This document shows, piece by piece, positions 1,645 through 62,718 of a stretch of DNA of 64,000 bases. A program made the translations under genes and the position numbers. The notes beneath the pieces are model-generated. The model ran no database searches, was not told the DNA's origin, and saw only the letters and a program-made list of their open reading frames with translations. Each line of letters opens with the position of its first letter. The first letter of the stretch is position 1. The stretch is from a virus: IMG/VR virus record IMGVR_UViG_3300000553_000005, positions 75,817 to 139,816 of that record, one strand, 5' to 3'.

Positions 1645-1714
1645 AAATTTAAAAAGACGCAATCAGCAATCTACCTCCTTAATAATGGTAAAAGCGTCTT
1701 GAATTATCTAAACC

Positions 1715-4589: not shown

Positions 4590-5225
4590 ATGAAAGATGC
4601 AACTGATATCGCAGTAGTACTAGACCGTTCCGGCTCCATGCAAAATATTCAACATGATACGGAAGGGGGATTTAACACTTTTGTTAAAGAACAGAAGGAG
4701 CAACCGGGTGAGGCTAAATTAAGTCTTTACCAATTTGATGATAAGTATGAGGTAGTTTACGAGAATATGGATCTGAATAATGTTCCTGCTCTTTCTCTTA
4801 TTCCTCGCGGCTACACCGCCCTTCTGGATGCTGTTGGTAAAACCATTCAGAGCCGTGGAGAGTATTATGCTTCTCTGGCTGAAGAAGATCGCCCTGAACG
4901 AATTGTTTTCGTTATCATCACTGATGGAGAAGAGAATCATTCAACTGAGTATACTCTGGATGCCGTTAAGAGCCTGATTACACTCCAGAAAGAGACTTAC
5001 AAATGGCAATTTGTGTTCCTTGGGGCCGATATCAATTCTGTCGCTGTCGGAAGCTCCATGGGTATTTCCAAAGGATCTACAATGGATTTTGCTAAATCTC
5101 CTGTTGGAGTGGCTAACACTTACTCCAATCTATCGAAGAATATTTCCAGCTATCGTTCTTGTGCTAGTAGAGAGGTGTCCTTCTCTGATGCTGATCGTAT
5201 TGATTCCATGAAGACTGATAATTAA
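4590..5225 (+). CDS. vWA domain protein
   Basis: MIDAS DRSGSM, TALLDA, IITDGEEN. Confidence 0.9.
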   Translation: MKDATDIAVVLDRSGSMQNIQHDTEGGFNTFVKEQKEQPGEAKLSLYQFDDKYEVVYENMDLNNVPALSLIPRGYTALLDAVGKTIQSRGEYYASLAEEDRPERIVFVIITDGEENHSTEYTLDAVKSLITLQKETYKWQFVFLGADINSVAVGSSMGISKGSTMDFAKSPVGVANTYSNLSKNISSYRSCASREVSFSDADRIDSMKTDN

Positions 5226-25119: not shown

Positions 25120-28100
25120 TTAATTTCTCACTATGTTATGTTCTGTTACTAAATTTCCACCCAAAGTTTTCAAAGCAAATGCCTTGGCTTTTTCTGGATC
25201 AAAATCCTTGCAAGAGAAGACGTTAATGAAAATTTTCTGAAGTTCATCCAAGGCATGAATAGTTATAGAAGATTCGTAAAGGAACTGAACTACGCTGATT
25301 CCATCTTTCTTGGGATGGGTTTTGTAAGTTCCTTCAAACTTATCCTGGCCCCAACTGTAAATTGGTCCTCGCTGCATATCAATTTCATCACAGAGGTCTT
25401 CGGCAAACTTTTTCAAGATGTGGGTCTGGAATTTATCTGGGTCAACATCATGAAGATCCATAATAACCTCTTGGCCGTAATGCTCTTTCTTAGTTTCTTC
25501 AATAATTTCATCGCTATCATCGGCTACCTTTTTAATATAAGTAATGTAGCCCTGCTTGACACTGGCGGCTTTTGAATAGGGAGTGATGGCCGTAACCACT
25601 TCTACTTGCTTCTTACTACGAAGGCCCTGCATAGCCTTATCCCACAAATCTTTGTCCAGTTTGAAAGTTGTGCCTAAGTGGTAAACTTGACCAAATTGGT
25701 CTTCTATATGTTTCTTAAAGCTTCTTAGTGGAGTCATCCCTGAGAGATTTTCTAAGATAAACTCTTGAAGTTCTTCGATGAACTGCTCTCTCGGATAGTA
25801 TTTTTCCATGCCACCATAGGCTTGTTTGATTAGCAGACTCGCTTTTTTAACTGATAATTCTCTCAATTGTTGCTCCGTAATTTGCCTCGTGTCTAAAAGA
25901 ACTTGAAGTGTTGCCTGATAGAATCCAGAGTCAATTCCCATAGTTTCATTTCTTATGGCTCTCTCGGCTATCTTTTCATCGTACATCTGGAAATGAGAAT
26001 CTTCATCCATTCCTAATTTTTTCTGAATATAAGCCATGGTATCATCCATATCCTGCATATAGTAGGAAATGAAGCAGGATACAGCACAAAAAGAGCCTTT
26101 TTTATAATTAATTTCATTTCCCGCTGGTATAGCTTCATGGCAATCTTCACATTTTTGACAGAACCCACCCCTTACCAAAATTTTCTCACGTTCTGCCTCA
26201 AGATCATCATAACCATTGATGTTTAGTTGTTCCTCAATATAGGTTCTAGCTCTCCTCTTTTTATTTTCATCAGCATTCGGCAGAAACTTATCTATTAAAC
26301 GATTTATCGCTGGTCGGAAATACTCCCTTACACAATAACTGCAACAATAGGGATTGCCAGATAAATAGATGGCATCTTCTTCTGCCACAGGCTCATCACA
26401 ATTAGCACAATTGGTTAGCTCCTGATCTTCATGATCTTCATAGAGATCATTATCATTGTTAATATCCCAAGCACCAGGGAAGATAATTTTTTGCTCCATC
26501 GATTCTTTAATCTTCGGATCAAATTCTGCAAGTGTTTCAAAAATCCACCAGTAATTTGAATCTACATCATATTTTTGCCCAACATCAGCACTATCACTAA
26601 ACGGATCCCTACTAAATATCTGATCTCCAATATTTCTACCATCTACATCTTGGCATTCAATAGCACCAACTCCTTGACCTTGAATATTTTTGGTCGGGAC
26701 TCGGATGAGTGCATAGCGATCAGAACCATAATGCTCATTGGTGCCACTGTCCTGAGTAATAACATAGAGAGGACCACGTTCCAGATAGGCTTCAGCGGTC
26801 CCCTCCCCCTGTGTACACCAATGGGAACCTGTTGACATAAGCACCAAGGCTTCTGGAGTGGTACAACGATAGAAGGAGTAACCTCTGGTCTTAGCTAAAG
26901 GCTCACAACCATCTCTGAGATACTTATCCTTCTCTCTAATTAATTCTCTACCCTGCTCATTTTTGGATAGGTCGGCTCTAGTAGCCGTGTCATATATTTC
27001 TTTAAGATCTGAAAGACCTAACTTCATGATATCTTTTTCACCAGTAAAATTAGCACTACGTTTTAGCATAGCATAACGTTCAAGCATAATTTTAATATCA
27101 TCTCGTTTCATTGTTCCGGCTAGCGAAGATCTACCTTCTGGATCATCCATAGCTTTTCTAGTCTCTCTACATAACCATTCTAAATATTCTCCATTTTGAG
27201 AAGGGTCAACTAAAGATAGAGTATCTACCCCATGAGGAGGGAGATGATATTTAGAAGCAAGAGCTTTTTTCTTAGCTTCCGAAGCGGCGGCAAATTTCAA
27301 TAGAGCAGATTTAAAGTTAGAAAGTGAAGATTTCTTCAGTTTTTCAGAAGGTTCAGAGGTAGGTTCCAGTTCATCTGTTGCTATTTCACCCTCTATTTCT
27401 GGTGCTGATTCCTCTTGCACTTTGCCCATTCCACTATTTTCAATAATATCATCAATATCTGTACTCGTAGGGGTGAATTGGTCCTTAACATATTCTAGTA
27501 TGTCATCGTAAAGCGTATCATAAGTCATCAGTTCATCATAAACCGGCTGAAGGACTTTCAAGGCCCATTTATAATCCCCTAGAGTTAATCCGGGGGTCAC
27601 TTTTTCTACTCTGTCACTCTGCCCATTTTCAAAAGCTCTAATACCTGATGTCAGATTAGCTAAATACCAATCAAGAGCATAGTGATGGTTAACAGTATTG
27701 GGGAGACCCATTCGGATAGCTGCTTCATGCATTGCTCTAAATACTTTGGTGGCCTTTGGATCCCAGCCTGTCCCATAAATGAGTTCCTCGGCATCATCCA
27801 TAGCTTTTTGATTTCTTTCTTCTTTTCCTGGAATAGTTGCAACAAATGCCTTTACTTTTTTCTCAATTATATCATTATAAAACTCTTTAAAACATCCCTC
27901 GCAACAAAAATTATGGCTTTCTTTATCAGGGGAGTCATCATTATTCACATAAATAGTATCGTAGCTGTCTGTTTCCATATATGCATCACATTGATCACAT
28001 TTTTCAAAATGAGCCATATCATTAATATCATTAAAAATAAATCCTTCTCGGATATATCTTTCCAAATCCCTATCATAATTAGACAACCATTGAACTATTC

Positions 28101-43471: not shown

Positions 43472-44392
43472 GTGGTGAAAAACATCTTCACAACTTTGTA
43501 TGGGAGTCATTTGTTCGGCTGTAATGTGGCCGGTTCAGATGAGGACTATAAATCGGTTCATCTGGAAGATCTATCTGATCTTCTCTTTAAGGACACCCAC
43601 GCACTCAATAGCAAGGATGAAACTGGCCCAACCAAAATTGAAACCGAAACCTTCAGTCTTCGCTTCTACCTGAAGATGCTTGCTGGGGGACAGGTTATTG
43701 CCACTGATATGTTCTTTGCTCCCCCACAGTTCTGGAGGGGAGAAGTGTCTCCTCTCTGGAAGGAGATTCAAGCACTAAAGCCTTACGCTATTACTAGAAG
43801 GCTTCATGCCTTCGCTTCCTATGCCAAGAATCAAGCATTTAAGTATGGGAACAAAGGGCTTAAGATCCTGACTGTGCAGAAGGCTATCAAACTTTTGGAG
43901 TCTAACACTAGCTTTGAGAAACTGTGTGAAGAGCTAAAGGGTATGGAAGGTATCAAGTACACCACTGAACATGCGGCTGTGCAGGATATCCGTCACATTG
44001 AAATTTGTGGTAAGGATTGGGGTGAGACTACGGCTTATCATCTGTGGCTCCCGGTTCTCAAAGACCTAGAGGCCCAGTATGGTGAAAGGGCACGTTTGAG
44101 TACCAGGGGTGTTGACCTCAAGGCCCAGTATCAGACCGTCCGTATCACTTCTGAAGCCATTGAGCTACTCTCTACTGGTCATCTGACTTTCCCCAGGGGC
44201 GAGGCCCCTTTGCTGCTCTCTATCCGCAATAATGAGCTTGGGGAAGAGGCTTTGCGTGATTTGGTGGAAAACAAGCTGGCTGAACTTAAGGAGACTGTTC
44301 CCACTGATTCCCTCCCTGAAAAGGCTGATTGGGACAAGCTAAACGATTTTATTTTGTCTGCTGAAAAAGATTTTCTGAAGAAAACTCTGTAA
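43472..44392 (+). CDS. Pol-beta superfamily nucleotidyltransferase (RlaP/T4 NrdC.11-like)
   Basis: GSHLFG...SDED; C-terminal LLSIRN and LPEKAD. Confidence 0.8.
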   Translation: MVKNIFTTLYGSHLFGCNVAGSDEDYKSVHLEDLSDLLFKDTHALNSKDETGPTKIETETFSLRFYLKMLAGGQVIATDMFFAPPQFWRGEVSPLWKEIQALKPYAITRRLHAFASYAKNQAFKYGNKGLKILTVQKAIKLLESNTSFEKLCEELKGMEGIKYTTEHAAVQDIRHIEICGKDWGETTAYHLWLPVLKDLEAQYGERARLSTRGVDLKAQYQTVRITSEAIELLSTGHLTFPRGEAPLLLSIRNNELGEEALRDLVENKLAELKETVPTDSLPEKADWDKLNDFILSAEKDFLKKTL

Positions 44393-49774: not shown

Positions 49775-50015
49775 GATTTAGCCTTTTTAGTTTCAGATAT
49801 TTTCTTCTTGGTTTCTTCAGAACAACTTACCCCTTTATTCCAAGATGGTTTACCCATTTTAGCCTCAGATATTTTCCTTTTGGTTTCTTCAGTCATTACA
49901 TGCCCTTGAAGACTGTCACTGATATGTTTCTTTTGCTCATCAGTTCTTTTCTTTCCTGTGTTAGCTTTTCCAACTTTCTCTGCATGTTCTTTGGTAATTA
50001 TTTGTTTACTCCTGA
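49762..50015 (-). pseudogene. NUMOD3-repeat relic of a homing endonuclease
   Basis: Minus frame reads ..TDEQKKHISDS..TEETKRKISEAKMGKPSWNKG..SEETKKKISE..*; in-frame stop upstream and no nuclease domain. Confidence 0.75.
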
Positions 50016-50028
50016 AAGGTAGGTTGCT

Positions 50029-51144
50029 ATGCTAGAGGTACAGAAATTTCTTTTGTCCAATACTTTATCGGACCTTAAGGAAAAGTATGCCATCAATTAT
50101 AGGGTGGGTGATATAGAAAGTTTGGTTAGTTTAAATTACAACCAGATTGAGTCTCCTATGGGAGAGAAGATTGTGCAGGAATGCCGACAGCTAATTCTGG
50201 AACTTGATACTTGGAGGGTAGTGTCTATAGCCCTAGACAAATTTTTCAATTACGCAGAACAGAAGTCCCCTGAGTTTGATTGGTCTAGCTTTAAGACTTA
50301 TGAAAAGATTGATGGTTCTCTGATCTCGTTTTTTCACTATAATGGTCAGTGGTATTGTGCTACTCGCTCTGTCCCTGGAGCTAACACTCCAGTTGATGAG
50401 ACTGGTATGACTTTTAAGGATCTGGTCCTTCTTACTTTGAAGGACATGGGGACTTCCTGGGAGGGATTAACCTCTTACATGGAGCCTGGATACACTTATA
50501 TTTGTGAGCTTACTTCTGAAGAGAATAGAGTTGTTTGCCAGTATAATGAGCGTAAATTAACTCTCCTAGCTATTCGTTCTATTCATGAACCTTTTTTCAA
50601 AGAAAATAATTTGGAAATTTGGGAAGGCTATAATCAAGATTTTCCTCTGCCTCTTGTTACTCGTTATGATGGGTTTTCCAAGGAAGCTATCCTGGCTGAA
50701 GTGCAGGAGCGTAACCCCACTGAGCATGAAGGTTATGTGCTGGTGGATAAGAACTTCAATCGGGTTAAGATAAAGAGTAATGCTTACTGCTTAATGAGTT
50801 ATCAACGTGACGGTTTGGGTAAGTCTAACCGTGCCCGACTGGAACTGATCTTCTCTGACAAGGTGGATGACGTTATTGGTCTTCTGCCTAAGTTCGTGCA
50901 GGAGAAGATTCTTTCTCTCCAGACCGCTCTAAATAACCTCGTTCAGAGTATTAATCAGACGTACGCTGAAATAAAGAATATTGAATCACAGAAGGGCTTC
51001 GCTGCCGAAGCTATCAAGTATCGCTATTCGGCTGCACTATTCGCTCTCAGAGGTGGTCGTATCACGGACGCTCTGGAGTGGCTCAAGAGGGCTTCGGTCA
51101 AGAGTGTGCTGGGTTGGTTGCAGGTTGATGAGGAGGAAGAATAA
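50029..51144 (+). CDS. T4 Rnl1-like RNA ligase
   Basis: KFFN, EKIDGS, ATRS, ELTS..NRVV, EGYV and RVKIKS..Y. Confidence 0.92.
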   Translation: MLEVQKFLLSNTLSDLKEKYAINYRVGDIESLVSLNYNQIESPMGEKIVQECRQLILELDTWRVVSIALDKFFNYAEQKSPEFDWSSFKTYEKIDGSLISFFHYNGQWYCATRSVPGANTPVDETGMTFKDLVLLTLKDMGTSWEGLTSYMEPGYTYICELTSEENRVVCQYNERKLTLLAIRSIHEPFFKENNLEIWEGYNQDFPLPLVTRYDGFSKEAILAEVQERNPTEHEGYVLVDKNFNRVKIKSNAYCLMSYQRDGLGKSNRARLELIFSDKVDDVIGLLPKFVQEKILSLQTALNNLVQSINQTYAEIKNIESQKGFAAEAIKYRYSAALFALRGGRITDALEWLKRASVKSVLGWLQVDEEEE

Positions 51145-51407
51145 TGAGTAATCGTGAAGCTGAACTTGAAGGCCAAGTCTACCGAATGGGTAATCAAATC
51201 AAAGAACTGACTGAAGATTTGTTAGCGGCTCACAATGCTCATGAAGGTACTATGCGTGACTTGATTGAAGCCTATGAGAGAATAGCTGTGCTGGAGCAGG
51301 GTCTAAAGGAAATCACTGAGGGTTATCGCTTCGGTCGTTATCCTGATGGCGTGGGTATGGCTGAAAAGTTGCTGGCCGGGGAAAAACTAGAATACAAGGG
51401 AGAATAA
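51144..51407 (+). CDS. Small coiled-coil protein
   Basis: Coupled ORF. Confidence 0.55.
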   Translation: MSNREAELEGQVYRMGNQIKELTEDLLAAHNAHEGTMRDLIEAYERIAVLEQGLKEITEGYRFGRYPDGVGMAEKLLAGEKLEYKGE

Positions 51408-51408
51408 G

Positions 51409-51741
51409 ATGTATGCTGGCATGGAAAGTCATCAGAAGGGTTTTAATTTCTGGCTCCCCCTCGCTCTTCTTGGGGCAATCTTTGCCATCATGATTGGTGC
51501 TGCTGCTTGTGGGATAGCTTCAGCTTCAACAGAACAACGTTCTGATCGTGTCTGGAAGGCCCAGCAAGACCTTATGCCCCATGAGAGTTTCTATGTCTGC
51601 CCTAAGTGTGGGAGCCACGACACCAAAATCCAGTATCATCGTAAGGATCAGGTTTGCAGTTGTCTTGGTCGTCCCTGTGATATAGACCATCTTGCTGTTG
51701 AATGCAAACGTTGTGGTTTTGAAGGCTACGATCCTAAGTAA
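51409..51741 (+). CDS. Membrane-anchored zinc-ribbon protein
   Basis: Hydrophobic segment; CPKC and CKRC. Confidence 0.6.
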   Translation: MYAGMESHQKGFNFWLPLALLGAIFAIMIGAAACGIASASTEQRSDRVWKAQQDLMPHESFYVCPKCGSHDTKIQYHRKDQVCSCLGRPCDIDHLAVECKRCGFEGYDPK

Positions 51742-51772
51742 AGCTCAGTATTGAACAAGAGGAGAACGAAAC

Positions 51773-52021
51773 ATGAAATACTTCCTAGCTATCGCCGCTG
51801 TTCTAGCTCTTACAGCTTGCACAGACGCTCAACGTGCCAAGATTACTTCCGTTGGTTCAGCCCATCATGTCCAGCTTTACTCAGGTGGTAAGCTAATTGG
51901 CGAATGGGATTCTACTGGTGCTGTGACCAATGAAGAACATTCTGATGGTTTTGTCTTTGTGGACGCGAAGACCCATAAGAATATTGAGGTTGCGGGTCAG
52001 ATTATCATCACTCAAGAATAA
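51773..52021 (+). CDS. Phage lipoprotein
   Basis: Signal peptide with lipobox LTAC; AGGAG RBS. Confidence 0.75.
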   Translation: MKYFLAIAAVLALTACTDAQRAKITSVGSAHHVQLYSGGKLIGEWDSTGAVTNEEHSDGFVFVDAKTHKNIEVAGQIIITQE

Positions 52022-52070
52022 ATTTTTTGCAAGTGAACAAATTTTTGAAATTTCAGTATTAAGATAGAGT

Positions 52071-52181
52071 AGGGCCAAGGATAACAAAAGAACACGCAGT
52101 TGTTGTTACCTCCTTAAAGCAGTACGAAGTTGCAGTTGTCATTTTCAAGCGAAGCACATTAAGATTAAACTTCTTGGCCCT
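52071..52181 (+). ncRNA. Stem-closed RNA unit A (possible Y-like RNA)
   Basis: AGGGCCAAGGA/TTCTTGGCCCT 11-bp closing stem just after the AGTATTA motif. Confidence 0.55.
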
Positions 52182-52191
52182 TCTTTGACAG

Positions 52192-52299
52192 TAGACGCAA
52201 TTCAGCGACATTCCTATTTATGATGCTGAGAGGAGGGGTGGTCGAACCCTCAAAGATAGTTTCCCATTTCGGGTTAGTACCTTCGACCGAAAGCGTCTA
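52192..52299 (+). ncRNA. RNA unit B (divergent repeat member with pseudoknot)
   Basis: TAGACGC/GCGTCTA stem; GAGGG/CCCTC hairpin whose loop GGTCGAA pairs with TTCGACC. Confidence 0.65.
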
Positions 52300-52312
52300 G
52301 TTTTTGTTTTAC

Positions 52313-52385
52313 CCTCTAATTCACGGCAGTCCGTAGAGAGTACGGTGAGAGAAGTCGCCCAAAAAAGGCGAAGCGACATTAGAGG
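52313..52385 (+). ncRNA. RNA unit C
   Basis: CCTCTAAT/ATTAGAGG stem enclosing CCGTA/TACGG and TCGCC/GGCGA hairpins. Confidence 0.55.
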
Positions 52386-52395
52386 TTATTGACAG

Positions 52396-52748
52396 AAGGC
52401 ACACACCAGCAACCCAACCCTTTGACAGTGAGTTAGAGCCCACTCACACTAATAAAAAGCTCAAAAGGTGCCTTGTATTTTTTGTTTTACAGGTTTGTGT
52501 GATCCTGTTCAAATCACATTCACTATTCTTGAGACACACACCAGCAACCCAATCGTAGGGGAAACTCTACATCGTATAGTTAAGCCGCAGTGAGACTTAA
52601 CAAACAGGTTTGTGCGATCCTGTTCAAATCGCTCAAAGGTGTCTCGCCTTTTGTCGATAAGACACACACCAGCAACCCAAAATCTTACAAGGTTACTTGT
52701 ACCGAGTGGTTGGATACGCCACGTTAACTTGTGTCCAAAAGGTGTCTT
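52396..52748 (+). repeat. Three repeat RNA units D (52396-52474), E (52531-52645) and F (52659-52748)
   Basis: Invariant CACACACCAGCAACCCAA; covarying 7-bp closing stems; variable pseudoknot interiors. Confidence 0.85.
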
Positions 52749-52789
52749 GCTTTTTGTCCCATCGTGGGACCATTCATAGGAGAACGACA

Positions 52790-54253
52790 ATGACCAACCA
52801 GCTAATCGCCGCCCTCAAGACTTCACAGAACGTGACCTTCACTGAAAATGGTGCTGTGTCTAATGAAACTACGTTTAGTGATATTCTCGATCTGTTTTAT
52901 CACGCCCCTGCTCGTAGGGGTCAGGATAACACCGACCTCTTCAAGAAGGCGATGGCCGAAGATCATCAGACTGCGGTTCGTGCGTTGTTCTACATTCGTG
53001 ACATTCGTGGTGGACAGGGTGAGCGTGAAACGTTCCGCCAGGGACTTCGTTTCCTCCATGCCAACTACCCCGCTATTTTCAATGCGGTTATCTCTCTGGT
53101 GCCTGAGTATGGCCGTTGGGATGACGTTATTGAATACGTGCATGACAAGGGTGTACAGCAGCTTGTGGCTACCCAGCTATCGGCTGACTCCATTTCTGAC
53201 AAGTCTGTCTCTCTTTTGGCTAAGTGGATGCCTTCGGTGAACACTTCCAGCAAGAAGACCAAGGCTCTGGCCCACAAGTGGCTCAAGGTGCTTGGCCTGA
53301 CTGAGCGTGAGTATCGTAAGGTACTGTCTCGTCTTCGCGCTAGGACCGATGTTACTGAGGTCAAAATGTCTGCTCGTACCTGGTCTGCCATTAACTACTC
53401 TAGGGTAGCTTCTAAGGCCAGCTTGCGCTATCGCACTGCTTTCCACAAGCACGATGGCTCCCGCTACACCAGCTTCCTTGAGGCTGCTGTCAAGGGCGAG
53501 GTGAAGATCAACTCTGCCACTCTCTACCCTTACGATCTGACTGGGAAGTATCTTGGTTTCGGTATTTTCGGCTCCAATGGTACCCTGGACATGACCGTTG
53601 AGGCTCAGTGGAAGCAGCTTCCTAACTATTGCGCTACTGACACTAACGCTCTAGTGGTCTGCGATACCTCTGGCTCCATGTATGGTGGACTTCCCGGTGC
53701 CCCCTCTCCTATCTCTGTAGCTGTGTCTCTGGCACTCTACATCTCCGAAAGGAACCAGGGTGCTTTCAAGGATCACTTCATCACTTTCTCCGACCAGCCC
53801 AAGCTCCAGCGCATCAAGGGTACCACTCTGTTCGATAGGTGCAACTCCCTGAAGCAAGCCAATTGGGGTATGAACACCAATCTTCAGGGTGTGTTCGATA
53901 CCATTCTGTCCACTGCTGTTCGTGGTCGCATCCCCCAGGCTGAGATGCCTTCGGCTCTCTTCATCGTGTCGGATATGGAGTTTGACTCCTGCTGCGATAC
54001 TCATACTAACTTTGATCACATCAAAGCTAAGTATGCTGCGGCTGGCTACACCATGCCCAAGCTGGTGTTCTGGAACGTGAACTCGCGCAATATGCAGACT
54101 CCCGTTACCATGGACGAGAAGGGAACCTATCTAGTTTCGGGTTGCTCCCCCACCATCTTTGCCAAGGCCATCAATACTCAGGCTACTACACCCATACAGA
54201 TGATGCTGGAAACATTAAATGGCCCTCGCTACGAGAAGATTGTAGTTGCTTAA
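52790..54253 (+). CDS. DUF2828-family protein (TROVE/Ro60-like helical domain plus vWA)
   Basis: TENGA, RDIRGGQGER, YGRWDD, LAKWMPS, LYPYD, DTSGSM, SDMEFD and VFWNV; AGGAG RBS. Confidence 0.88.
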   Translation: MTNQLIAALKTSQNVTFTENGAVSNETTFSDILDLFYHAPARRGQDNTDLFKKAMAEDHQTAVRALFYIRDIRGGQGERETFRQGLRFLHANYPAIFNAVISLVPEYGRWDDVIEYVHDKGVQQLVATQLSADSISDKSVSLLAKWMPSVNTSSKKTKALAHKWLKVLGLTEREYRKVLSRLRARTDVTEVKMSARTWSAINYSRVASKASLRYRTAFHKHDGSRYTSFLEAAVKGEVKINSATLYPYDLTGKYLGFGIFGSNGTLDMTVEAQWKQLPNYCATDTNALVVCDTSGSMYGGLPGAPSPISVAVSLALYISERNQGAFKDHFITFSDQPKLQRIKGTTLFDRCNSLKQANWGMNTNLQGVFDTILSTAVRGRIPQAEMPSALFIVSDMEFDSCCDTHTNFDHIKAKYAAAGYTMPKLVFWNVNSRNMQTPVTMDEKGTYLVSGCSPTIFAKAINTQATTPIQMMLETLNGPRYEKIVVA

Positions 54254-54272
54254 CGGCACTATAGTAGCGAGT

Positions 54273-54306
54273 AAAGGTGAGAATCGTAGTAGATTCTCAC
54301 CTTTTT
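54273..54306 (+). terminator. Rho-independent terminator
   Basis: AAAGGTGAGAATC/GATTCTCACCTTT followed by Ts. Confidence 0.85.
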
Positions 54307-54332
54307 ATTTGTCCGATCAGAGAGGAGAAGAA

Positions 54333-54596
54333 ATGAACGGTTTAGACCCTTGTGCTTATATCAGAGAGACTTATGGTATTCCAATTTTCATTGGGCAGAG
54401 AGTCAAATTTCATTTTCATGTTCCATCTCATATCTTGGGCGCAACTTCTCAAGGAGGATGGATAACCGGAGCTAGCAATCATATTCATGTCATTCTGGAT
54501 GGAGAACATCATGCTAGAGCCTTTCATCCAGCTTGGCTCGTAACTTATTATAATCCAGATGGTACGGAAATGGTATCTTTTGGGGATACGTATTGA
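54333..54596 (+). CDS. Hypothetical protein
   Basis: AGGAG RBS; YIRETYG..G.RV and FHP.W. Confidence 0.6.
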   Translation: MNGLDPCAYIRETYGIPIFIGQRVKFHFHVPSHILGATSQGGWITGASNHIHVILDGEHHARAFHPAWLVTYYNPDGTEMVSFGDTY

Positions 54597-54725
54597 ACCA
54601 GAAGATACTCCAGTTTTTATTTATCAAAAAATATAAGTAATCAACAATCATATAATTTTAGTATATAATATGTAGAGTGTAATCTTAGGGGGTTACACTC
54701 ACATCTCAGACATATAGGAGGATAT

Positions 54726-55151
54726 ATGCTAATCAAGAAACAAACCCCTGCCTCAGTAAATCTTTTTGGAGGTGGCTCTCCTTTCTCCTGGAACCCTTTT
54801 GGTTCATGGGATCAGTCTTTTGGGAATTTCTTTTCCGAATTGGAGCCAACTTGTTGGGATCAAGCCGAATCAGAAGACAGCGTGACTGTATCTTTAGTAG
54901 TTCCTGGGTTTAAACAAGAAGAACTAGATATCGAAGTTCATCATCGTGGTTTTTCTGTCAAGGGCAAATCAACAGTCTATTCTCGTAGTTATGCTATTGA
55001 TAGGACTTTGGGCTGTAAGATTGTTCCTGATAGCACTCAAGCAATTTTAGAGAATGGAATTTTAACTTTAACTTTTAAGAAGGAATCGGCTAGAAAAACT
55101 GAAGCGGTTATTAAAGTTAAGGCTCACTCTCCTAATGAGTTAGCCGGTTAA
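54726..55151 (+). CDS. Small heat-shock protein (Hsp20/alpha-crystallin)
   Basis: VPGFKQEELDIEV and AILENGILTL. Confidence 0.85.
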   Translation: MLIKKQTPASVNLFGGGSPFSWNPFGSWDQSFGNFFSELEPTCWDQAESEDSVTVSLVVPGFKQEELDIEVHHRGFSVKGKSTVYSRSYAIDRTLGCKIVPDSTQAILENGILTLTFKKESARKTEAVIKVKAHSPNELAG

Positions 55152-61605: not shown

Positions 61606-62718
61606 GTGATTAGTTTTGATATTAAATCCTTGCCACTCTGTATTCTGGAGGAATTAGAACAAATGGCGAAGCCTCATGATTCAAATGCTACGTTTCGTTT
61701 CGTAGGGGGTTGTGTACGTGACACTATTCTGGGCCGTAAGCCTAAGGATTTTGATATCGTCACCAATACTACGGCTGATACGTTAGAGAAAATGGGTTTG
61801 GAGAATGTGGGTAAATTTTTCCCCGTCTACTTGCATAATACCAATTATGGTCACATTGAAGTTGCTGTGGCTCGTTCCGAAGAGAAAGTGGGAGCAGGGC
61901 ATAAAGGATTTGTCACTACCCCTACTGGCAACTATGAAGATGATCGTGTTCGCCGTGATTTGACCATGAACGCGATGATGGTGGATGCGGCTGGAACTTT
62001 GTACGGCTGGGAAGTTGGCTACGAGGCCATTGCTGCTAAAACCATGGAGCAAGTTTCCAATAAGTTTGCAGAGGACCCCCTGCGCGTTCTCAGAGTGGCT
62101 CGTTTCGCTGCTCAACTAGGTGCTGATTGGACGGTTAGCCCTCGACTGGTTAAGACTATGTGGCAAATGCAACCTGAACTAGCTACACTCCCTCCTGATA
62201 GGGTGCGAGAGGAGTTGAAGAAGGTCTTTGCATCGATGGCCCCTCATCGTTTCTTTGAGGTTCTGAAGGCTTCCGATTGTCTGTCCCCCTGGTTCCCCGG
62301 ATTGACACAGAACTTTCATGTTGTAACTTCTATGATCTCTTATGGTGCAACTAATAATTGGACTTTTGAGCAATTCATGATTGGTATTGGTGCTGTTACC
62401 GATCCAGATTTCCTAATTCACTTGGGAGTTGGCAAAGCTGAAAGAAAAGCTGTTCATTATCTTCAAATTTATAAAGAGAAGATGAAGAAGGCTAGACAGT
62501 GTGATTCCTTCACTCTGGTTCAAATAGTCAAGTGTAGTTGCGGAATTCTGTCTTTGGAACAACTCTTGGATTGTGTTCTTATGGATAATTATGCTGATTC
62601 TAAGGATTACATCCTGAAGTGCCAGGATGCTATAAAGGCTGTTGATATGAATGGGGTGACAGGAGTTGATGACGCTATGGCGCGTATGGATATGGCCGTA
62701 ACGAAAGTAAGCAAGTAG
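61606..62718 (+). CDS. cca: tRNA nucleotidyltransferase (CCA-adding, class II)
   Basis: VGGCVRD..LG..PKDFD, RRDLTMNA and EDPLRVLRVARF. Confidence 0.92.
   Translation: MISFDIKSLPLCILEELEQMAKPHDSNATFRFVGGCVRDTILGRKPKDFDIVTNTTADTLEKMGLENVGKFFPVYLHNTNYGHIEVAVARSEEKVGAGHKGFVTTPTGNYEDDRVRRDLTMNAMMVDAAGTLYGWEVGYEAIAAKTMEQVSNKFAEDPLRVLRVARFAAQLGADWTVSPRLVKTMWQMQPELATLPPDRVREELKKVFASMAPHRFFEVLKASDCLSPWFPGLTQNFHVVTSMISYGATNNWTFEQFMIGIGAVTDPDFLIHLGVGKAERKAVHYLQIYKEKMKKARQCDSFTLVQIVKCSCGILSLEQLLDCVLMDNYADSKDYILKCQDAIKAVDMNGVTGVDDAMARMDMAVTKVSK

What the first reader, a model, noticed from the sequence alone, without database searches (positions are those of the whole stretch)
52192..52748. Each array unit carries a different compact H-type pseudoknot: possible decoys or antitoxin mimics
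Seen: unit B has GAGGG/CCCTC with loop GGTCGAA:TTCGACC. Unit D has GTGAGT/ACTCAC with GAGC:GCTC after an A-rich linker. Unit E has ACAGG/CCTGT with GCGAT:ATCGC. Unit F has GTGG/CCAC with TTGGATAC:GTGTCCAA. Known: type III toxin-antitoxin antitoxins (ToxI) are ~35-nt H-type pseudoknots, and some phages evade ToxIN with ToxI mimics. Inference: the array could be a library of anti-defence RNA decoys or exonuclease-blocking elements.
Basis: partly seen in the sequence, partly recalled or inferred. Interest (0 to 1): 0.8.

Follow-up and report, generated by a model that had tools for sequence, protein, structure and literature searches.

The report
Pseudoknot-bearing Y-like RNAs beside Ro-like gene
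The pseudoknots are real and conserved, but they sit inside small RNAs that share one "handle" and lie next to a phage gene for a Ro60-shaped RNA-binding protein, so they look like the variable bodies of an undescribed Y-RNA-like particle, not like toxin-antitoxin RNA mimics.

Summary
Observation confirmed. Units B, D, E and F (52192-52748), plus a handle-less copy before E, each hold a hairpin whose loop pairs with a downstream strand. All 19 instances in four related phage genomes keep this pairing (shuffle p 0.001-0.086). The paired strands differ between genomes through compensatory changes.

The ToxI reading fails every test: no tandem identical repeats, no Rfam match, no toxin gene.

B, D, E and F share a "handle": a 7-bp terminal stem, unpaired CAGCRAC, an A-rich 3' linker and a U-rich tail. 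They lie directly upstream of a DUF2828+DUF7788 gene whose model matches only Ro60 structures at full length. A covariance model built from handle units of other lineages recovers the four units. In 88 DUF2828 loci it gives 158 hits, all on the gene strand.

Best reading: Y-RNA-like partner RNAs of a Ro60-like protein in an RNA-repair gene neighbourhood, with pseudoknots as the displayed bodies. Binding and function are inferred.

This scan has reported the DUF2828-handle RNA pairing before on other DNA (notes in at least 88 genomes). None of the retrieved notes mentions pseudoknot bodies. I found no paper describing the pairing.

The parts
52057..52062 (+). Promoter-like -10 element TATTAA within a conserved CAGTATTAAG, 5-25 nt before the first RNA unit
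   Evidence: The same element stands before the array in L008, L010, L097, L011 and L012. The generic sigma-70 scan did not call it. Promoter function is inferred.
52068..52184 (+). Unit A: a stem-closed RNA without the handle. It carries an ACCUCCUUA (anti-Shine-Dalgarno-like) stretch.
   Evidence: 12-nt inverted repeat. The closing stem covaries (GGGCC/GGCCC in the window against GGACC/GGTCC in L010). Not a pseudoknot unit.
52192..52299 (+). Unit B: handle (TAGACGC/GCGTCTA, then CAGCGAC) plus a pseudoknot. S1 is 52233-37/52247-51, S2 is 52240-46:52282-88, and a 30-nt loop 3 holds a small hairpin.
   Evidence: p 0.02; S1 in 3 versions, S2 in 4, all paired; 8.2 bits, fourth-best hit in the region.
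52310..52388 (+). Unit C: a stem-closed RNA without the handle, absent from the three related genomes
   Evidence: 11-nt inverted repeat; fold z-score -2.6; not present in L008, L010 or L097.
52396..52474 (+). Unit D: handle (AAGGCAC/GTGCCTT, then CAGCAAC) plus a pseudoknot. S1 is 52428-33/52442-47, S2 is 52436-39:52459-62, and loop 3 is 11 nt and A-rich.
   Evidence: p 0.007; both stems in 3 versions across 3 genomes; 17.9 bits.
52489..52519 (+). PK0: a handle-less pseudoknot 11 nt before unit E and a paralogue of the E pseudoknot. S1 is 52489-93/52504-08, S2 is 52497-503:52513-19.
   Evidence: Direct repeat D3; (S2 in 4 versions). It stays upstream of E in L097, which lacks D.
52531..52645 (+). 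Unit E: handle (GAGACAC/GTGTCTC, then CAGCAAC), a GAAA-tetraloop hairpin, a hairpin with a conserved 11-nt loop, and a pseudoknot. S1 is 52604-08/52619-23, S2 is 52614-18:52628-32.
   Evidence: p 0.014; both hairpins in 4 covarying versions; the closing stem changes A-T to C-G; 10.0 bits.
52659..52748 (+). Unit F: handle (AAGACAC/GTGTCTT, then CAGCAAC), a hairpin, and a pseudoknot. S1 is 52706-09/52719-22, S2 is 52710-17:52731-38.
   Evidence: p 0.001; S2 in 4 versions with double changes at four positions; S1 invariant; 21.4 bits.
52790..54253 (+). Gene for a Ro60-like protein (DUF2828 + DUF7788/vWA), the presumed partner of the handle RNAs
   Evidence: Pfam E 2e-35 and 2e-51. AlphaFold model with pLDDT 79.8. 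The 11 best PDB matches shown are all Ro60/Rsr, aligned at full length, E 3e-7 to 6e-4.
50029..51144 (+). T4 Rnl1-type RNA ligase gene. It keeps its place upstream of the array in the closest relatives.
   Evidence: Pfam RNA_lig_T4_1, E 1e-20. The order ligase, gene-free gap of 520-680 nt, DUF2828 is seen.
1654..1700 (+). A lone handle unit far from the array, with a 23-nt body holding the same 11-mer TACCTCCTTAA as unit A
   Evidence: Best hit of model R1 in the window and in the whole 139.8-kb record (34.9 bits, E 1.6e-5). Sequence; 11-mer.

Best explanation
The 770-nt gap is an array of small non-coding RNA genes read rightward, on the strand of the gene that follows.

Four units (B, D, E, F) belong to a widespread RNA family that accompanies DUF2828 genes. 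Their common part, the 'handle', has four elements:
- a 7-8-bp stem formed by the two ends of the RNA;
- an unpaired CAGCRAC 3-4 nt inside the 5' strand;
- an A-rich linker before the 3' strand;
- a G followed by a U-rich tail.

By analogy with Y RNAs, whose terminal stem holds the Ro60 site, the handle is most likely the binding site of the phage's Ro60-like ring protein. The rest of each RNA is a body that the particle displays. In this phage lineage each body ends in its own compact H-type pseudoknot, placed 3-6 nt before the 3' strand of the handle. S1 plus S2 add up to 10-13 bp if stacked end to end.

The locus sits among RNA-repair genes (Rnl1 ligase, RlaP, a CCA/poly(A) polymerase-type enzyme). 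I therefore think the particle works in the contest over RNA damage during infection. The pseudoknots would serve as rigid adapters or baits for RNA-handling enzymes, as Y RNA modules tether PNPase to Ro60.

Shown here: the family membership, the strand-specific linkage to DUF2828, the Ro60-like fold, and the conserved pseudoknots. Inferred: transcription and RNA ends, protein binding, and the role of the pseudoknots.
For: 1. Handle. Every CAGC[ACG]A in the gaps of five genomes has a perfect 7-bp closing stem 3-4 nt upstream and a U-rich tail. The stems differ between units and lineages while staying paired.

2. Family and linkage.
- A motif scan gave 75 hits on the gene strand against 9 on the other strand.
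- Model R1 was built only from 28 units of other lineages. It ranks F, D, E and B as the four best hits in 51800-53000.
- R1 gives 158 hits at E<=0.1 in 88 DUF2828 loci, all on the gene strand.
- R1 gives no hit in 50.8 kb of unrelated viral DNA.

3. Cultured phages carry the same units. Listeria phage cka15 has three just upstream of its DUF2828 gene. Escherichia phage phiSUSP1 has four among tRNA genes just downstream, one with a tRNA-like body.

4. Protein. Pfam DUF2828+DUF7788. The 11 best structural matches shown are Ro60 proteins, including the phage phiLo Ro60 that binds two upstream Y-like RNAs (PMC12135203).

5. Pseudoknots.

6. Context. The order Rnl1, gap, DUF2828 is conserved. RlaP and a CCA/poly(A) polymerase gene lie in the window.

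7. Precedent. Y RNAs lie within 4 kb of Ro60 genes on the same strand (PMC4201824).
Against: - No transcript, RNA-end or binding data exist for this phage.
- The protein does not match Pfam TROVE, and a sequence profile finds no Ro60 in the PDB. The likeness is by fold only, with TM 0.34-0.49.
- The RNAs match neither YrlA nor Y_RNA in Rfam.
- E and B score weakly against R1 (10.0 and 8.2 bits).
- In E, PK0 and F the first stem does not covary. Nested folding prefers S2 alone as a plain hairpin.
- Only four genomes support the covariation.
- In the next clade (L011, L012, L014) the pseudoknot potential is weaker (p 0.04, 0.29, 0.05).
- No terminator-like sites were called in the array, so the units may be pieces of one long leader.
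Confidence: 0.65

Rival explanations
1. ToxI-type antitoxin mimics. The units imitate type III antitoxin RNAs and neutralise host ToxN-like RNases.
For: Each unit holds a small H-type pseudoknot. Phage-borne pseudo-ToxI repeats are known from the literature (own knowledge, not checked here).
Against: - No tandem repeats were found.
- The units are 79-115 nt long and differ from one another.
- No Rfam family matched the stretch at E<=10.
- No ToxN-type gene is adjacent.
- The constant part is the DUF2828-linked handle, which has no counterpart in ToxI.
Confidence: 0.03
2. A cis-acting leader. The array is the 5' untranslated region of the DUF2828 mRNA. The handles are operator sites for autoregulation or attenuation, not genes for free RNAs.
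For: - The array abuts the ribosome-binding site of the gene.
- It is co-directional, and no terminator-like site is called within it.
- An earlier scan note reports a handle over a DUF2828 start codon in another phage (not checked here).
Against: - Handle units also occur far from the gene, at 1654-1700, which is 51 kb away.
- They also occur downstream of the gene and among tRNA genes in phiSUSP1 and several metagenome loci.
- Each unit ends in its own stem plus U-rich tail.
- Bodies vary freely while handles stay constant.
Confidence: 0.12
3. Protein-independent stability elements. The pseudoknots block exoribonucleases, or simply stiffen a processed transcript, with no role for the Ro-like protein.
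For: Compact pseudoknots with an A-rich third loop (unit D) are typically stable. PK0 stands alone just 5' of unit E.
Against: - No match to any exoribonuclease-resistant RNA family in Rfam.
- This reading does not explain the invariant CAGCRAC or the 158:0 strand-specific linkage to DUF2828 genes.
Confidence: 0.08
4. Chance complementarity. The 'pseudoknots' are plain hairpins with accidental matches nearby.
For: - S1 of F is only 4 bp and S2 of D is only 4 bp.
- Single-sequence p-values for PK0 and some orthologues are 0.06-0.09.
- Nested folds of PK0 and F use only S2.
Against: - All 19 instances in four genomes keep the pairing.
- S2 occurs in 2-4 different, fully paired versions per unit.
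- Both stems covary in B and D.
Confidence: 0.04

Closest known systems
Ro60/Rsr with Y RNAs: bacterial and mycobacteriophage YrlA (Rfam RF02553; PMC4201824), and Thermus phage phiLo Ro60 with Yrl1/Yrl2 (PMC12135203)
   Same: - Several small RNA genes lie just upstream of, and on the strand of, a ring-shaped HEAT-plus-vWA protein gene.
- The RNA ends pair in a stem next to a conserved element.
- The body is variable.
- The locus is linked to RNA-repair genes.
   Different: - The protein is DUF2828, not Pfam TROVE, and resembles Ro60 only by fold.
- The handle sequence (CAGCRAC) is unlike the Ro-binding helix.
- There is no Rfam match and no conserved T-loop CGAA motif.
- The bodies here are pseudoknots, not tRNA-like domains.
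Type III toxin-antitoxin antitoxin RNAs (ToxI, CptI, TenpI)
   Same: Small RNAs that can form pseudoknots, arranged in a row, in a phage-host conflict setting.
   Different: - ToxI-type arrays are tandem near-identical repeats of about 34-45 nt, placed directly before their toxin gene and cut by it (own knowledge).
- Here the units are 79-115 nt long and all different.
- They are closed by a handle and are followed by a Ro60-like gene.
Dictyostelid Class I RNAs (Rfam RF01414; PMC7919456)
   Same: - A short covarying stem joins the 5' and 3' ends.
- A conserved unpaired motif lies next to the 5' strand.
- The remainder is variable.
- One phiSUSP1 handle unit gives a weak match (26.9 bits, below the 41.5 cut-off).
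   Different: - No match for the window's own units.
- They are eukaryotic RNAs, and their known binder is an RRM protein (PMC7919456).
- This is a resemblance only.
Classical H-type pseudoknots with an A-rich third loop (viral frameshift signals, preQ1-I aptamers)
   Same: The order is S1, L1, S2, S1', L3, S2', with L2 of 0-2 nt. Unit D has an 11-nt A-rich L3 over a 6-bp S1.
   Different: They are not in a coding frame, and there is no Rfam riboswitch match. Here the pseudoknot is a module inside a larger stem-closed RNA.

Membership tests
Type III antitoxin RNA (ToxI/CptI/TenpI) | Tandem direct repeats of near-identical units of about 34-45 nt | tested here: not met
   Tandem Repeats Finder found no array in 50000-55000. 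The units are 79-115 nt long with different bodies.
Type III antitoxin RNA (ToxI/CptI/TenpI) | A ToxN/AbiQ-type endoribonuclease gene immediately downstream | tested here: not met
   The downstream gene is DUF2828+DUF7788 with a Ro60-like fold.
Type III antitoxin RNA (ToxI/CptI/TenpI) | Match to the curated RNA models | tested here: not met
   cmscan of 51900-52900 at E<=10 gave only two unrelated weak hits. Nothing reached gathering score in the window.
Y RNA (Ro60 partner; Y_RNA RF00019, YrlA RF02553) | Encoded within a few kb of, and on the strand of, a Ro60 orthologue | tested here: inconclusive
   Position and strand fit. The neighbour is a fold-level relative of Ro60, not a TROVE-domain orthologue.
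Y RNA (Ro60 partner; Y_RNA RF00019, YrlA RF02553) | The 5' and 3' ends pair in a stem that carries the protein-binding site | tested here: inconclusive
   A terminal stem with covariation is present. The RNA ends and the binding are not known.
Y RNA (Ro60 partner; Y_RNA RF00019, YrlA RF02553) | Match to the Rfam models; for YrlA, a tRNA-like domain with the GNCGAA T-loop motif | tested here: not met
   No Rfam match and no tRNA call. The TCGAA in the loop of unit B is not kept in L097.
DUF2828-associated handle RNAs (defined by this scan, unpublished) | A 7-8-bp terminal stem, unpaired CAGCRAY 2-4 nt inside the 5' strand, and an A-rich linker before the 3' strand | tested here: met
   Model R1, built from other lineages, scores F 21.4, D 17.9, E 10.0 and B 8.2 bits, the top four hits in the region.
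DUF2828-associated handle RNAs (defined by this scan, unpublished) | Lies beside a DUF2828 gene, on its strand | tested here: met
   The array ends 41 nt before the start codon. All 158 hits in 88 loci are on the gene strand.
H-type pseudoknot (structural class) | A hairpin loop pairs with a strand outside the hairpin, and both helices are maintained in evolution | tested here: met
   Met in full for B and D, where both stems covary. For E, PK0 and F, S2 covaries and S1 is conserved but invariant. No probing was done.
Dictyostelid Class I RNA (RF01414) | Match to the curated model | tested here: not met
   No hit for 51900-52900 or 1620-1740 at E<=10.

The most novel reading that the evidence does not exclude
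Phages carry a Ro60-like particle whose RNAs act as a plug-in library. A constant handle docks on the ring protein, and exchangeable bodies imitate the RNA targets of host RNase defences or recruit repair enzymes. In this lineage the bodies are pseudoknots plus an anti-Shine-Dalgarno-like stretch. In other phages they are pieces of tRNA. This would be a programmable RNA decoy or adapter system, undescribed so far.
Probability: 0.2. Interest if true: 0.85.

Novelty: new variant of a known kind. Interest (0 to 1): 0.7.

Why it matters
Ro60 and its Y RNAs are a classic RNA-surveillance particle whose function in bacteria and phages is still unclear.

DUF2828 proteins occur in at least 705 deposited phage genomes, including Felix O1-like, KVP40-like and Listeria P100-like phages and mycobacteriophages. 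In the papers I could search, no partner RNA is described for them.

A shared handle joined to freely varying bodies gives a direct experimental route. One can pull down the protein, read the RNAs, swap the bodies, and ask what each body binds.

The pseudoknot bodies show that the cargo need not be tRNA-like. That widens the range of things the particle might sense or recruit. It also bears on how large phages cope with RNA-targeting defences.

Tried and rejected
- Rfam at gathering score over the whole window, and at E<=10 over the array and over the lone unit: nothing relevant.
- tRNA and tmRNA scan: none in the window.
- DNA similarity of the gap to deposited phages: no match.
- The exact 17-mer of the handle in viral contigs gave six single matches. 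None is a handle unit by R1, so they are chance.
- Protein-based locus search in viral contigs: no relative.
- Several close relatives (the P0004 and P0012 contigs, and part of the P0003 contigs) have no DNA on file.
- Sequence profile of the protein against the PDB: no Ro60 hit, so the likeness is by fold only.
- A family-wide scan for pseudoknot potential in 181 handle units was uninformative. Reversed sequences keep complementarity and so are no control, and the excess over shuffles partly reflects ordinary hairpins.
- I did not use the count of structure pairs on the pseudoknots. MAFFT placed the gaps so that S2 columns were out of register. Explicit helix tables were used instead.
- The Listeria phage paper gives no coordinates for two of its three highly transcribed regions, so expression of the handle units there remains unproven.
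- I considered the T-arm likeness of the S1 hairpins (GGUU... starts) and dropped it. There is no tRNA model match and no T-loop consensus.

Full report
**Setting**

The window is the right-hand 64 kb of a 139.8-kb IMG/VR phage record judged about half complete. Positions 52022-52789 hold no credible ORF.

On the left lie a T4 Rnl1-type RNA ligase gene (50029-51144) and three small ORFs. On the right, starting at 52790, lies a 487-aa protein with Pfam DUF2828 and DUF7788. Elsewhere the window encodes an RlaP-type nucleotidyltransferase and a CCA/poly(A) polymerase-type enzyme. It has no tRNA genes.

**The observation**

A fifth pseudoknot without a handle (PK0, 52489-52519) precedes unit E and is a paralogue of the one inside E (repeat D3).

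For each unit I took the hairpin loop and the strand between the hairpin and the closing stem. I computed the best duplex and compared it with 2000 shuffles of the downstream strand. The results were p = 0.02 (B), 0.007 (D), 0.07 (PK0), 0.014 (E) and 0.001 (F).

**Relatives**

The gap has no DNA match among deposited phages. The protein, however, has metagenomic relatives at 86, 77, 77 and 74% identity. DNA was available for three further genomes: L008/L009, L010 and L097-L100.

All three show the same layout: ligase, gene-free gap, DUF2828. They carry orthologous units in the same order. Unit C is missing in all three, and unit D is missing in L097.

- All 19 pseudoknot instances keep the loop-to-downstream duplex, at -6.3 to -12.0 kcal/mol against shuffled means of -0.6 to -6.2.
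- The strands differ between genomes yet always pair.
- In F, four of the eight S2 positions show changes on both sides.
- In D, the last S1 pair goes from T-A to G-C, and S2 is entirely different in each of the three genomes.
- In PK0, two positions switch T-A to C-G.
- In B, S1 and S2 both change.
- S1 of E, PK0 and F is invariant or nearly so. For these three the pseudoknot rests on covarying S2 plus a conserved, correctly placed S1.
- Nested folding alone picks S2 as a plain hairpin in PK0 and F.
- The geometry is that of classical H-type pseudoknots: L2 of 0-2 nt and S1+S2 of 10-13 bp. Unit D has an 11-nt A-rich third loop.

**What the units are**

- Each begins with a 7-bp strand and ends with its complement.
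- CAGCRAC lies 3-4 nt inside the 5' strand.
- An A-rich linker precedes the 3' strand.
- A G plus a U-rich tail follows.

I then fetched 80 further loci encoding DUF2828 proteins 41-65% identical to the window's. A simple scan for stem plus motif gave 75 hits on the gene strand against 9 on the other strand. A looser scan gave 274 against 55, with a clear consensus of 5' AAGRYNN(N) ... CAGCAAY ... NNRYCUU-G.

A covariance model built only from 28 short units of other lineages gave these results:

- In the whole window it finds a lone unit at 1652-1703 (E 1.6e-5), F (E 0.016) and D (E 0.09), all on the + strand.
- With filters off, it ranks F, D, E and B as the four best hits in 51800-53000.
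- Across 88 DUF2828 loci it gives 158 hits at E<=0.1, every one on the gene strand.
- In 50.8 kb of unrelated viral DNA it gives none.

Cultured phages have the same units.

- Listeria phage cka15 carries three units in the 396-nt gap before its DUF2828 gene, behind a TTGACA-17-TATCAT element.
- Escherichia phage phiSUSP1 carries four among the tRNA genes just after its DUF2828 gene.
- One of those four encloses a T arm and a D arm, and it nearly reaches the tRNA cut-off (28.8 of 29 bits).

**The partner protein**

Sequence methods do not link it to Ro60: there is no TROVE match and no Ro60 in a profile search of the PDB. The AlphaFold model (pLDDT 79.8) matches, as its 11 best PDB hits shown, only Ro60 proteins over their full length. 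These are phage phiLo Ro60, Deinococcus Rsr, and Xenopus and human Ro60, at E 3e-7 to 6e-4 and TM 0.34-0.49. After them come isolated vWA domains.

Y RNAs are encoded within about 4 kb of Ro60 genes on the same strand (PMC4201824). The phiLo Ro60 binds two Y-like RNAs encoded just upstream of its gene (PMC12135203). The authors of the cka15 study suspected that their Ro-like protein has Y RNA partners but did not identify them (PMC12282133).

**Mechanism**

Shown:
- a strand-specific RNA family tied to DUF2828 genes;
- a constant handle with variable bodies;
- a Ro60-like fold for the partner protein;
- conserved pseudoknot bodies in this lineage;
- an RNA-repair gene neighbourhood.

Inferred:
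- The array is transcribed from the conserved CAGTATTAAG element at 52054-52063.
- The handle is the docking site for the ring protein.
- The pseudoknots are displayed modules that bind or imitate something else, as the Y RNA module that tethers PNPase does.

I cannot say what they bind.

Two observations lean towards imitation of cellular RNAs. Bodies in other phages are pieces of tRNA (and earlier scan notes). The lone unit at 1654-1700 and the handle-less unit A both display the 11-mer TACCTCCTTAA, which resembles the 3' end of 16S rRNA.

**The ToxI reading**

It fails each defining feature that could be tested. There are no tandem identical repeats. No Rfam family matched the stretch, even at E<=10. 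There is no adjacent toxin gene. A general decoy idea survives only as one version of the displayed-body model.

**Rivals**

- A purely cis-acting leader fits the position of the array and the lack of called terminators. It does not explain units far from the gene, downstream of it, or among tRNA genes.
- Stability elements without a protein partner do not explain the invariant CAGCRAC or the 158:0 linkage.
- Chance is excluded by the comparative data.

**Further clade**

In the next clade out (L011, L012, L014; proteins 65-67% identical by the alignment) the array has two units. The first keeps a GAGG/CCTC hairpin whose loop can pair downstream, but more weakly (p 0.04, 0.29, 0.05). More distant arrays carry plain hairpins or tRNA-like bodies. 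The pseudoknot bodies are therefore a trait of this lineage set on a much older handle.

**Novelty**

This scan has already noted the DUF2828-handle RNA pairing on other DNA, in at least 88 genomes. None of the retrieved notes mentions pseudoknot bodies. In the searchable literature, 'DUF2828' occurs in five papers, none about RNA partners. I rate the finding as a new variant of the Ro/Y-RNA kind.

Noticed in passing
window 1654-1700: A lone handle unit lies between two ORFs, 51 kb from the DUF2828 gene. It is the best R1 hit in the whole 139.8-kb record. Its 23-nt body holds TACCTCCTTAA, which resembles the 3' end of 16S rRNA. The same exact 11-mer occurs only once more in the window, inside unit A (52107-52117).
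   Followed up: partly
window 52068-52184 and 52310-52388: Units A and C are stem-closed RNAs without the CAGCRAC handle. A is conserved with a covarying stem in three relatives. C is unique to this genome. Both contain GCAGU, as does the conserved 11-nt hairpin loop of unit E.
   Followed up: partly
L094 1473-2024 (Listeria phage cka15, record about 26195-26746): The region annotated as the tiny ORFs CKA15_059-061 is reported as the most abundant phage transcript (PMC12282133). It matches the ROOL RNA model over its full length (90.1 bits, E 2e-17, just under the 99.1 cut-off). That abundant RNA is therefore probably ROOL, not a Y RNA.
   Followed up: partly
L094 2666-2930: Three handle units lie directly upstream of the cka15 DUF2828 gene CKA15_055. 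The paper detected that protein in purified virions. Pectobacterium phage CBB annotates its homologue as a structural protein. The Ro-like protein may therefore be packaged in the virion.
   Followed up: no
L095 4919-5039 (Escherichia phage phiSUSP1): This handle unit has a body containing a canonical T arm followed by a D arm, a rearranged tRNA-like domain. The tRNA model gives a partial hit of 28.8 bits at 4934-4987.
   Followed up: partly
window 52560-52600 (inside unit E): Two hairpins covary in all four genomes. One has a GAAA tetraloop. The other has a conserved 11-nt loop, CCGCAGUGAGA. Together they hint at a tertiary contact or a second binding site.
   Followed up: partly
window 43472-44392, 61606-62718; L008 2869-3324: Further RNA-repair or tRNA-care genes lie around the locus: an RlaP-family nucleotidyltransferase and a CCA/poly(A) polymerase-type enzyme. 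In the closest relative, a PTH2 peptidyl-tRNA hydrolase gene sits between the ligase and the array.
   Followed up: no
window 52757-52771: A small hairpin (GTCCCA / TGGGAC) lies between unit F and the ribosome-binding site of the DUF2828 gene. It is kept in L008 but not in L010 or L097.
   Followed up: no
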